Shown one piece after another: positions 52,686-53,017 of a stretch of DNA of 64,000 bases (position 1 is the stretch's first letter; each line of letters begins with the position of its first letter). The position numbers and the translations under genes were made by a program. The notes beneath the pieces were generated by a model. That model did not search any database. It saw nothing but the letters and a program-made list of their open reading frames with translations, and was not told the DNA's origin. The stretch is from Eledone cirrhosa (lineage: Eukaryota): assembly GCA_964016885.1 (NCBI GenBank), contig OZ024756.1:4216001-4280000 (forward strand), given 5' to 3'.

Positions 52686-53017
52686 AATATAAGATCAAAA
52701 GATGGTTAAAGGAGTTCCATGTATTTTATTATGCGCATTTCAAAAACAAACATCATCATGCAATAATATTTGTGTTTTCATCAGATAAAACAGGAGAACA
52801 TGATATGAAGGCTAAAAGACACTTGTGGATAGTGCAGTTTTAAATCAACATATGTTGATTTAAAACTGCACTATCCACAAGTGTTTTTTAGCCTTCATAT
52901 CATGTTCTCCTGTTTTATCTGATGAAAACACAAATATTATTGCATGATGATGTTTGTTTTTGAAATGCGCATAATAAAATACATGGAACTCCTTTAACCA
53001 TCTTTTGATCTTATATT
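52686..53017. mobile_element. Spacerless ~330-bp palindrome carrying two divergent hammerheads
   Basis: Centre at 52851/52852 with about one mismatch between arms. HHR(-) at 52724-52790 and HHR(+) at 52913-52979: ttttat-CTGATGA...GAAA-tgcgca-TA-ataaaa. Long (TA)n on both sides. Confidence 0.9.

What the first reader, a model, noticed from the sequence alone, without database searches (positions are those of the whole stretch)
52686..53017. Pristine double-ribozyme palindrome
Seen: ~165-bp arms with no spacer and about one mismatch, with intact HHRs facing outward on both strands. Transcription from either side gives nearly the same RNA, which can fold either as a ribozyme or as a ~165-bp hairpin that sequesters it. 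Inference: a very recent insertion and a potential substrate for ADAR editing (abundant in coleoids) or Dicer. It could also form a cruciform between long (TA)n tracts.
Basis: partly seen in the sequence, partly recalled or inferred. Interest (0 to 1): 0.7.

Follow-up and report, generated by a model that had tools for sequence, protein, structure and literature searches.

The report
Head-to-head Penelope-type retroelement stub
This 336-base mirror-image sequence is real and fairly young, but it is most likely an ordinary leftover of a very common Penelope-like jumping gene whose insertions lay down two tail pieces head to head, each carrying a hammerhead self-cutting RNA motif that could hardly work in this arrangement.

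Summary
It is a zero-spacer palindrome centred at 52851|52852, with 1 mismatch in 165 pairs and one outward-facing type I hammerhead motif per strand, set between (TA)n tracts.

It is not unique. A second family copy lies at 234-514, one public run holds 2,582 contigs matching one arm, and the window has further head-to-head units at (TA)n. One is a coding Penelope-like element (RT plus GIY-YIG) with the same anatomy.

Best reading (0.8): a non-coding stub of a Penelope-like element whose inverted arm arose during insertion, an arrangement already described. The coding parent was not found.

The 'ribozyme or hairpin' switch is not supported. In a two-arm RNA the hairpin wins by about 99 kcal/mol. 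Each strand has only one sense hammerhead, whose palindromic stem III needs a second RNA molecule.

'Recent' is plausible but loosely bounded. ADAR or Dicer processing and cruciform formation are untested, raw reads across the centre were not obtained, and no call showed that the host is a coleoid. The class-level link to octopus hyper-editing is the one open lead.

The parts
52684..52851 (-). Left arm: inverted copy of the element's 3' unit (sense on the - strand)
   Evidence: 99.4% identical to the right arm; outer end set by comparison with 234-514
52852..53019 (+). Right arm: about 168-nt non-coding unit with a hammerhead motif, ending at (TA)n, no tail
   Evidence: 95% identical over 160 nt to 348-507; 2,582 contigs of run X3 lay on 52852-53014
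52849..52854 (.). Centre of symmetry (CATATG), zero spacer; the long arm of the second copy begins at the same place
52913..52979 (+). Type I hammerhead motif of the dimer-dependent kind; C3 52919, GAAA 52962-52965, stem III 52965-52972, predicted cut after 52973
   Evidence: cleavage not tested
52724..52790 (-). Mirror hammerhead motif, identical; C3 52784, predicted cut after 52730
52818..52818 (.). The single arm mismatch (partner 52885); the left arm carries the odd letter
   Evidence: the right arm and the copy at 348-514 agree; not among the 9 variants listed in run X3
52461..52683 (.). Left (TA)n tract, inferred target
   Evidence: its interruptions do not mirror those of the right tract
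53020..53136 (.). Right (TA)n tract, followed by (AG)n
234..514 (+). Second family copy: shortened inverted arm (about 104 nt, hammerhead core damaged) plus full direct arm
515..603 (+). One-sided 3' extension ('tail') of the second copy; its first part is homologous to the extension of the relative at 50211
   Evidence: local score 31, reached by 0 of 300 shuffles; alignment
14861..18102 (-). Comparator, a different family: broken coding Penelope-like element (RT, CxxC, GIY-YIG, hammerhead at 15124) with a 937-bp head-to-head inverted copy abutting (TA)n and a tail on the direct copy only

Best explanation
It is a non-coding stub of a Penelope-like retroelement (PLE): two copies of a roughly 168-nt pseudo-LTR-like 3' unit joined head to head in one insertion event at a (TA)n tract. 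Shown here: the palindrome, the hammerhead anatomy, the high-copy family, the shared template of both arms, the one-sided tail in the sister copy, and the same anatomy on a coding PLE in the window. Inferred: a PLE RT-endonuclease acting in trans nicked (TA)n and made cDNA of a short family RNA. The cDNA 3' end then folded back on the short self-complementary head, primed the second strand, and the far end joined (TA)n. Priming from both target strands with the two cDNA heads annealing would give the same product. The hammerheads are passengers: they would serve processing of tandem source RNAs as dimers, but in RNA read through this copy they are locked in the long hairpin. This copy lacks the tail on both ends and is probably a dead end; that is an inference from Poseidon, where reverse transcription starts at nt 111-118 of the ORF but RNA up to nt 172 is required (PMC11167929).
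For: (1) Hammerhead with self-complementary stem III near the 3' end of each arm, the PLE type per PMC4209133 and PMC6765202. (2) Second copy at 234-514 with the same head position. Its two arms share all 5 differences from this copy that occur in both (52906, 52907, 52952, 52992, 53008) and otherwise differ privately (1 right, 4 left), so both arms came from one template. (3) That copy has a one-sided extension homologous to that of a diverged relative (0 of 300 shuffles), matching the PLE 'tail' on one end only (PMC3846280, PMC8557442). (4) The coding PLE at 14861-18102 shows the same layout. (5) 10 of 11 inverted units examined have (TA)6+ within 7 nt of at least one end, while such tracts cover 7% of the window (the 11 were picked by eye from 29 rows). 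(6) Six related hammerheads (both family copies, 50211, 62338, 37564, 70) keep a C x pyrimidine mismatch at stem II position 4, with changed but mostly compatible pairs around it and in stem I. (7) Families B and D also occur as single arms (54691-54983, 58557-58900). (8) High copy number in run X3.
Against: No coding parent was found: the arm matches neither coding PLE in the window, and no whole genome was held. The link to PLEs therefore rests on anatomy, not homology. Two consensus traits of metazoan minimal PLE hammerheads are absent (G10.1-C11.1 and the extra nucleotide after A9). Both family copies in the window are palindromic with the same head, which random 5' truncation would not predict. 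No raw read crossing the centre was seen, because runs X20 and X21 laid 0 reads. None of the 9 common variants in X3 hits the core or stem III, but that is not significant (P=0.32). Rfam did not recognise the hammerhead.
Confidence: 0.8

Rival explanations
1. The palindrome itself is the replicating unit. A palindromic source is transcribed from near the centre or through it; cDNA that passes the centre snaps back and rebuilds the same zero-spacer palindrome each cycle. The two identical outward RNAs could pair through stem III and cleave as a trans dimer. It would still be PLE-mobilised, but a distinct life cycle.
For: The head position is the same in both window copies. Summed contig depth in X3 stays high up to the head (1.4 million at 52876-52881 against 2.2 million at 52984-52989), which suggests a unit of defined length. 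Bidirectional pLTR promoters were proposed in PMC3846280. The stem III dimer duplex is -10.5 kcal/mol.
Against: Only 2 copies were seen. The second is asymmetric and has a damaged core in one arm. This copy lacks the tail. Sister families have single arms and variable junctions. There is no RNA evidence. Contig depth is not a copy number.
Confidence: 0.1
2. A palindromic MITE moved by a DNA transposase (TA target), with the hammerhead inherited by chance from an older retroelement.
For: The whole element is an inverted repeat flanked by TA. Palindromic DNA-class repeats exist, such as the Xenopus Harbinger repeat (PMC5625713).
Against: The second copy runs past the symmetric end into an element-derived tail on one side only. 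Hammerhead structure is kept across diverged relatives. A coding PLE has the same layout. None of the 36 ORFs scanned matched a transposase family.
Confidence: 0.05
3. A fold-back read or assembly artefact.
For: Near-perfect zero-spacer symmetry between simple repeats; no raw read across the centre was obtained.
Against: The mirror stops at the (TA)n tracts: their lengths (223 and about 117 nt), interruptions and outer flanks differ. The arms differ at one site. An older copy with diverged arms has the same head-to-head layout.
Confidence: 0.03
4. A host-selected RNA switch or small-RNA source toggling between ribozyme and hairpin.
For: Both folds can be drawn. A one-arm RNA folds stems I and II with pairing probability 0.7-1.0 for most pairs (about 0.5 for the three pairs next to the core).
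Against: About 99 kcal/mol separates the folds in the two-arm RNA. A monomer cannot form stem III. The copy is young and one of many. No host gene was recognised among the 36 ORFs scanned.
Confidence: 0.02

Closest known systems
Head-to-head inverted pseudo-LTR insertions of endonuclease-bearing Penelope-like elements (Arkhipova et al. 2013, PMC3846280; Craig et al. 2021, PMC8557442; passages read)
   Same: Inverted copy joined at the 5' end, palindrome at the junction, optional tail on one end (seen in the sister copy), and (TA)n or microsatellite targeting as described for Neptune and Naiad.
   Different: No ORF at all; the arms are equal with zero spacer; the tail-like extension in the sister copy runs about 90 nt to the next (TA)n rather than 30-40; the parent is not identified.
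Minimal and palindromic-helix-III type I hammerheads of metazoan PLEs (Cervera & de la Pena 2014, PMC4209133; parts 1-2 of 4 read)
   Same: Type I core, self-complementary helix III needing a dimer. The paper reports dual motifs about 100-700 bp apart on opposite strands in Schistosoma; here the two C3 positions are 135 bp apart.
   Different: A10.1-U11.1 instead of G-C, no extra nucleotide after A9, a 16-bp helix II with a conserved C x pyrimidine mismatch at position 4, an 8-nt helix III palindrome, and an AUA triplet.
Animal non-LTR retrozymes (PMC7229834, passages; bioRxiv 10.64898/2026.07.22.740005, part 1 of 5)
   Same: Short, AT-rich, non-coding units with a type I hammerhead, proposed to be non-autonomous PLE derivatives.
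   Different: Retrozymes are head-to-tail tandems that put two sense hammerheads on one RNA. This unit is head to head and puts one sense and one antisense copy on each RNA.
Palindromic Harbinger repeat of Xenopus tropicalis (Porath et al. 2017, PMC5625713; passages)
   Same: A short self-complementary repeat that would form tight dsRNA without a partner copy.
   Different: Harbinger is a DNA-class repeat with shown hyper-editing; here the class is retro-type and editing is untested.

Membership tests
Penelope-like element insertion (non-coding stub) | Type I hammerhead with palindromic helix III in the 3' terminal repeat | tested here: met
Penelope-like element insertion (non-coding stub) | Head-to-head inverted copy with a palindrome at the junction | tested here: met
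   the hammerheads read outward, so the 5' ends meet
Penelope-like element insertion (non-coding stub) | Optional tail at one end only | tested here: met
   Present in the family copy at 515-603; absent from both ends of the copy in question
Penelope-like element insertion (non-coding stub) | Insertion into a microsatellite such as (TA)n | tested here: met
Penelope-like element insertion (non-coding stub) | Sequence homology to the pseudo-LTR of a coding RT-GIY-YIG element | tested here: inconclusive
   No match to the two coding PLEs in the window; only 64 kb could be searched
Penelope-like element insertion (non-coding stub) | Target-site duplication | not testable with these tools
   Both ends run into (TA)n, and no empty allele is available
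Autonomous Penelope-like element | ORF with RT and GIY-YIG endonuclease | tested here: not met
   336-bp element; no stop-to-stop ORF of 110 aa or more lies within it
Hammerhead ribozyme, type I | Core C3 U4 G5 A6 N7 G8 A9, G12 A13 A14, A15.1-U16.1, H17 | tested here: met
Hammerhead ribozyme, type I | Stems I and II form | tested here: met
   In one-arm RNA only: forcing them costs 1.3 kcal/mol over the MFE; not in two-arm RNA
Hammerhead ribozyme, type I | Self-cleavage | not testable with these tools
   Needs an in vitro assay
Metazoan min-HHR consensus (Cervera & de la Pena 2014) | G10.1-C11.1 pair and an extra nucleotide between 9 and 10.1 | tested here: not met
   A-U pair and no extra nucleotide in the best register; the hammerheads of the two coding PLEs do have both
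Non-LTR retrozyme | Head-to-tail tandem units, each with a hammerhead | tested here: not met
   Both copies are head to head, and no tandem array was found at either
MITE of a TIR DNA transposon | Symmetric fixed ends in all copies | tested here: not met
   One-sided element-derived extension in the copy at 234-603
MITE of a TIR DNA transposon | Termini shared with a transposase-coding element | not testable with these tools
   No genome held; no transposase among 36 ORFs scanned

The most novel reading that the evidence does not exclude
The family is a self-regenerating palindromic retro-unit with a fixed centre. Outward transcription from the centre gives two identical one-arm RNAs that assemble an active double hammerhead in trans, while read-through RNA forms a perfect hairpin. 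As a class, such head-to-head PLE units would supply much of the near-perfect dsRNA behind the exceptional hyper-editing reported for octopus, whose repeat source Porath et al. 2017 could not annotate. In this window, 70 of 151 non-microsatellite 50-bp tiles with a >95% inverted partner within 2 kb lie in units with hammerhead or RT/endonuclease evidence. The dsRNA-source part alone is perhaps 0.25 likely, provided the host is an octopus.
Probability: 0.1. Interest if true: 0.6.

Novelty: new member of a known kind. Interest (0 to 1): 0.25.

Why it matters
As a single locus it matters little: it is a clean, young example of a known PLE insertion product. Its value is as a marker. Near-identical zero-spacer stubs record the still unresolved second-strand step of PLE retrotransposition (snap-back versus priming from both target strands). 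A genome this dense in head-to-head PLE units also offers a concrete, testable candidate for the source of long near-perfect dsRNA and hyper-editing in octopus-like genomes. The hammerhead subtype (A-U closing pair, conserved C x pyrimidine mismatch in helix II, 8-nt palindromic helix III) did not appear in the papers I read and is easy to assay.

Tried and rejected
Whole-genome search: no genome is held for this window.

Rfam: 0 matches at gathering score; 81 sub-threshold matches, mostly miRNA-precursor and snoRNA models fitting hairpins or simple repeats, with no hammerhead family. I rejected a miRNA reading on that basis.

Sequencing runs: no RNA holder listed, which says nothing on expression. 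Raw-read runs X20 and X21 laid 0 reads from about 1.9 Gb each, so there was no test of the centre. Run X1 gave one low-depth contig that leaves the arm at a doubled GATC, which looks like a proximity-ligation junction and possibly carry-over. For these reasons the 19 holder rows across 16 organism codes are not taken as evidence of wide distribution or horizontal transfer; only 2 of the 19 holders (X1, X3) were laid, and only X3 shows a high-copy family.

Exact 23-nt pattern scans: 0 hits in metagenome contigs and 0 in viral contigs.

Purifying selection from X3 variants: 0 of 9 in core or stem III, P=0.32, not significant.

Bacterial promoter scan: 4 sites against a shuffle mean of 2.3, and irrelevant to a eukaryote.

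Host identity: the protein atlas gave HTH_animal clusters, Mollusca commonest in the top one with phylum known for 7 members, a lead only. The homologue search gave 26 unnamed proteins.

Tail comparison: of 36 pairs among 9 extensions, only 2 scored above shuffles, so 'tail' is shown only for the 234 and 50211 pair and for the coding PLE, and is an assumption for the rest.

A structure-pair count failed on a length slip; pairs were listed by script instead.

Literature: no paper held all of Penelope + non-autonomous + palindromic + Neptune. The searches octopus + Penelope + palindrom and octopus + genome + Penelope + microsatellite listed nothing describing this family. In the O. vulgaris repeat paper the words palindrome, ribozyme, hairpin and Neptune do not occur in the main text. 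Its supplements and Repbase/Dfam were not seen and may already hold the family. Lunse et al. 2017 is not held.

Full report
OBSERVATION. The palindrome is there as described. Its centre is between 52851 and 52852 with no spacer, and there is one mismatch in 165 arm pairs, 52818 G against 52885 T. It lies between (TA)n tracts at 52461-52683 and 53020-53136. Each strand carries one type I hammerhead motif reading outward: CUGAUGA at + 52919 and - 52784, a 16-bp stem II with one C x U mismatch, GAAA, an 8-nt self-complementary stem III, an AUA triplet and a 6-8 bp stem I. A strict descriptor for this kind of motif found 6 sites in the window and 0 in each of 20 shuffles. Rfam does not recognise it, and one arm folds no better than shuffles, so the hammerhead call rests on the core letters, stem pairing and comparison with relatives. 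Hammerhead numbering and the core consensus are standard knowledge.

NOT AN ISOLATED OBJECT. A second copy lies at 234-514: a full direct arm (95% identical over 160 nt) whose head starts at the same place, plus a shortened inverted arm. Where both arms of that copy can be compared, they share 5 differences from the copy in question and otherwise differ privately (1 right, 4 left). Three of the left-arm changes fall in the GAAA/stem III segment. So the two arms of an insertion come from one template and then decay separately. In run X3, 2,582 contigs lie on one arm; nine common variants are listed, each below 50% by depth, so this copy carries the majority letter at all nine. That shows a high-copy family but gives no copy number. 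The other three runs laid were uninformative: X20 and X21 had 0 reads and X1 had one contig. No raw read across the centre was therefore seen. An artefact is still unlikely, because the mirror ends at the (TA)n tracts, which differ in length and interruptions.

CONTEXT. A masked self-comparison lists 29 nearby inverted matches. Of 11 units I picked from these by eye, 10 have (TA)6+ within 7 nt of an end: 8 on one side only and 2 on both. The exception is a palindrome of a different interspersed repeat at 22801-23079. One of the 10 is a broken coding element at 14861-18102 with RT (Pfam RVT_1, E 6e-5, below the curated cut-off) and GIY-YIG (E 9e-5, above the cut-off). It has a CxxC motif before the nuclease and a hammerhead in its 3' part. 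It also has a 937-bp head-to-head inverted copy that abuts (TA)n, and a tail of about 57-60 nt only on the direct copy. A second coding element at about 32.6-37.0 kb has the DKG motif, RT, CxxC, a GIY-YIG-like region and a 3' hammerhead. The C-terminal nuclease with a Cys linker fits the Neptune/Nematis description in PMC8557442; no tree was built. Neither element is homologous to the family in question. The copy at 234-514 continues on one side into sequence homologous to the extension of a diverged relative at 50211 (0 of 300 shuffles), so this family also has an optional tail. Six related hammerheads keep a C x pyrimidine mismatch at stem II position 4 with changed, mostly compatible pairs around it, which suggests selection on the fold in the source lineage. 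Within-family variants in X3 avoid the core, but not significantly (P=0.32).

HOW IT MOST LIKELY WORKS. Shown: the anatomy above. Inferred: a PLE protein acting in trans cut (TA)n and reverse-transcribed a short family RNA. The cDNA end folded back on the self-complementary head and primed the second strand, or two cDNAs primed from opposite target strands annealed at their heads. PMC3846280 (passages) describes inverted pLTRs with palindromes at the junction, head to head as the usual case, an optional tail, and self-priming as the explanation. PMC8557442 (passages) describes the same layout and microsatellite targeting, and lists Octopus among hosts of Naiads. PMC4209133 (parts 1-2 of 4) reports dual hammerheads 100-700 bp apart on opposite strands, no cleavage by a single motif and low cleavage by dimers. 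PMC11167929 (parts 1-2 of 4) shows a PLE protein cutting and extending both strands of AT-rich DNA, starting at two internal RNA sites that bound the tail. It also shows that hammerhead cleavage needs the protein and is dispensable for insertion in vitro. Other papers seen: PMC6765202 (passages), PMC8969392 (passages), PMC7229834 (passages), bioRxiv 10.64898/2026.07.22.740005 (part 1 of 5), PMC13282606 (part 1 of 3 and passages), PMC5625713 (passages). No supplements were read; the octopus repeat library in the supplements of PMC13282606 may bear on whether the family is already catalogued.

The two-state fold is not a real choice. The two-arm RNA folds at -271 kcal/mol as a hairpin against -172 with the hammerhead stems forced, and the antisense arm is always transcribed before the sense arm. 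In a one-arm RNA stems I and II do form (1.3 kcal/mol above the MFE), but stem III costs +4.7 kcal/mol as a monomer and gains -10.5 as a duplex of two molecules. 'Double ribozyme' therefore does not mean a cis double hammerhead. Recency: one mismatch gives 0.02-3.4% (95%) arm divergence. With the octopus scale quoted in PMC13282606 (distance 0.09 = 25 My), my arithmetic gives about 0.8 My (0.02-4.7). That assumes the rate applies and the arms do not homogenise each other. ADAR or Dicer processing is plausible for any transcribed 165-bp duplex but untested. Cruciform formation is plausible for an AT-rich (29% GC) zero-spacer palindrome but untested. The central asymmetry of the second copy fits either a later deletion or a primary fold-back at an imperfect microhomology.

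WHAT IS LEFT THAT COULD BE NEW. PMC5625713 found octopus to have an exceptionally high fraction of loci with a near-perfect inverted partner (4.4e-3) and one of the two strongest hyper-editing signals, but had no repeat annotation for it. In a similar, not identical, measure on this window, 248 of 2,558 tiles have such a partner, and 151 of these are not microsatellite. Of the 151, 70 fall in units with hammerhead or RT/nuclease evidence (28 coding PLE, 26 family B, 11 this copy, 4 its sister, 1 family C). A further 36 fall in units with the anatomy only. This is one selected window, so it is a lead and not an estimate. Earlier notes of this scan on other genomes reached the same ordinary reading for similar palindromes; they are unchecked AI notes and not independent support.

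VERDICT. A real, young and tidy example of a known product of Penelope-like retrotransposition: a new member of a known kind, interest 0.25.

Noticed in passing
window 14861-18102: Broken coding Penelope-like element (RT, CxxC, GIY-YIG) with a 937-bp, 97% identical head-to-head inverted copy. An 18-nt deletion removes the hammerhead core in the inverted copy only, and there is a short tandem duplication at the junction (17171-17212).
   Followed up: partly
window about 32600-37000, - strand: Second, nearly full-length, C-rich Penelope-like element with frameshifts; compact hammerhead at 32721.
   Followed up: partly
window 53494-54057 and 54691-54983: A second hammerhead-bearing family: an older head-to-head pair (about 5% arm divergence, asymmetric junction) right next to the finding, plus a single-arm copy; a distant relative lies at 13855-13994.
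   Followed up: partly
window 53317-53431, 54550-54664, 55002-55056: 115 bp of flank repeated at 100% identity in inverted orientation, with a further 55-bp copy: a recent local inverted duplication around family B, unexplained.
   Followed up: no
window 30536-30808: Third hammerhead palindrome family: core variant with C at position 4, 60-nt stem II region, perfect 8-nt stem III palindrome and GUC triplet in the left arm; related to 61316-61460.
   Followed up: partly
window 415, 52919, 50211, 62338, 37564 (+) and 70 (-): Hammerhead subtype with a conserved C x pyrimidine mismatch at the fourth position of stem II and an 8-nt stem III; not seen in the papers read.
   Followed up: partly
window 3263-3608, 58557-58900, 61701-61856: Palindromic family D with a 152-nt one-sided extension, a single-arm copy starting near the same head, and a third diverged piece. 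It has CUGAUGA and GAAA, but no stem I was found.
   Followed up: partly
window 39777-41313: 331-bp inverted repeats at 98.5% identity around about 875 bp, abutting (TA)n on one side; further copies at 55105-55427 and 3790-3833; class unknown.
   Followed up: no
window 41856-43817: Tandem array of 17 copies of a 115-bp unit at 96% match.
   Followed up: no
window 22801-23249, 13666-14750, 27979-29337, 44009-44098: An abundant interspersed repeat ending at ATT-rich tracts also forms palindromes and nearby inverted pairs; it recalls an octopus RTE-related SINE (from memory, not tested).
   Followed up: no
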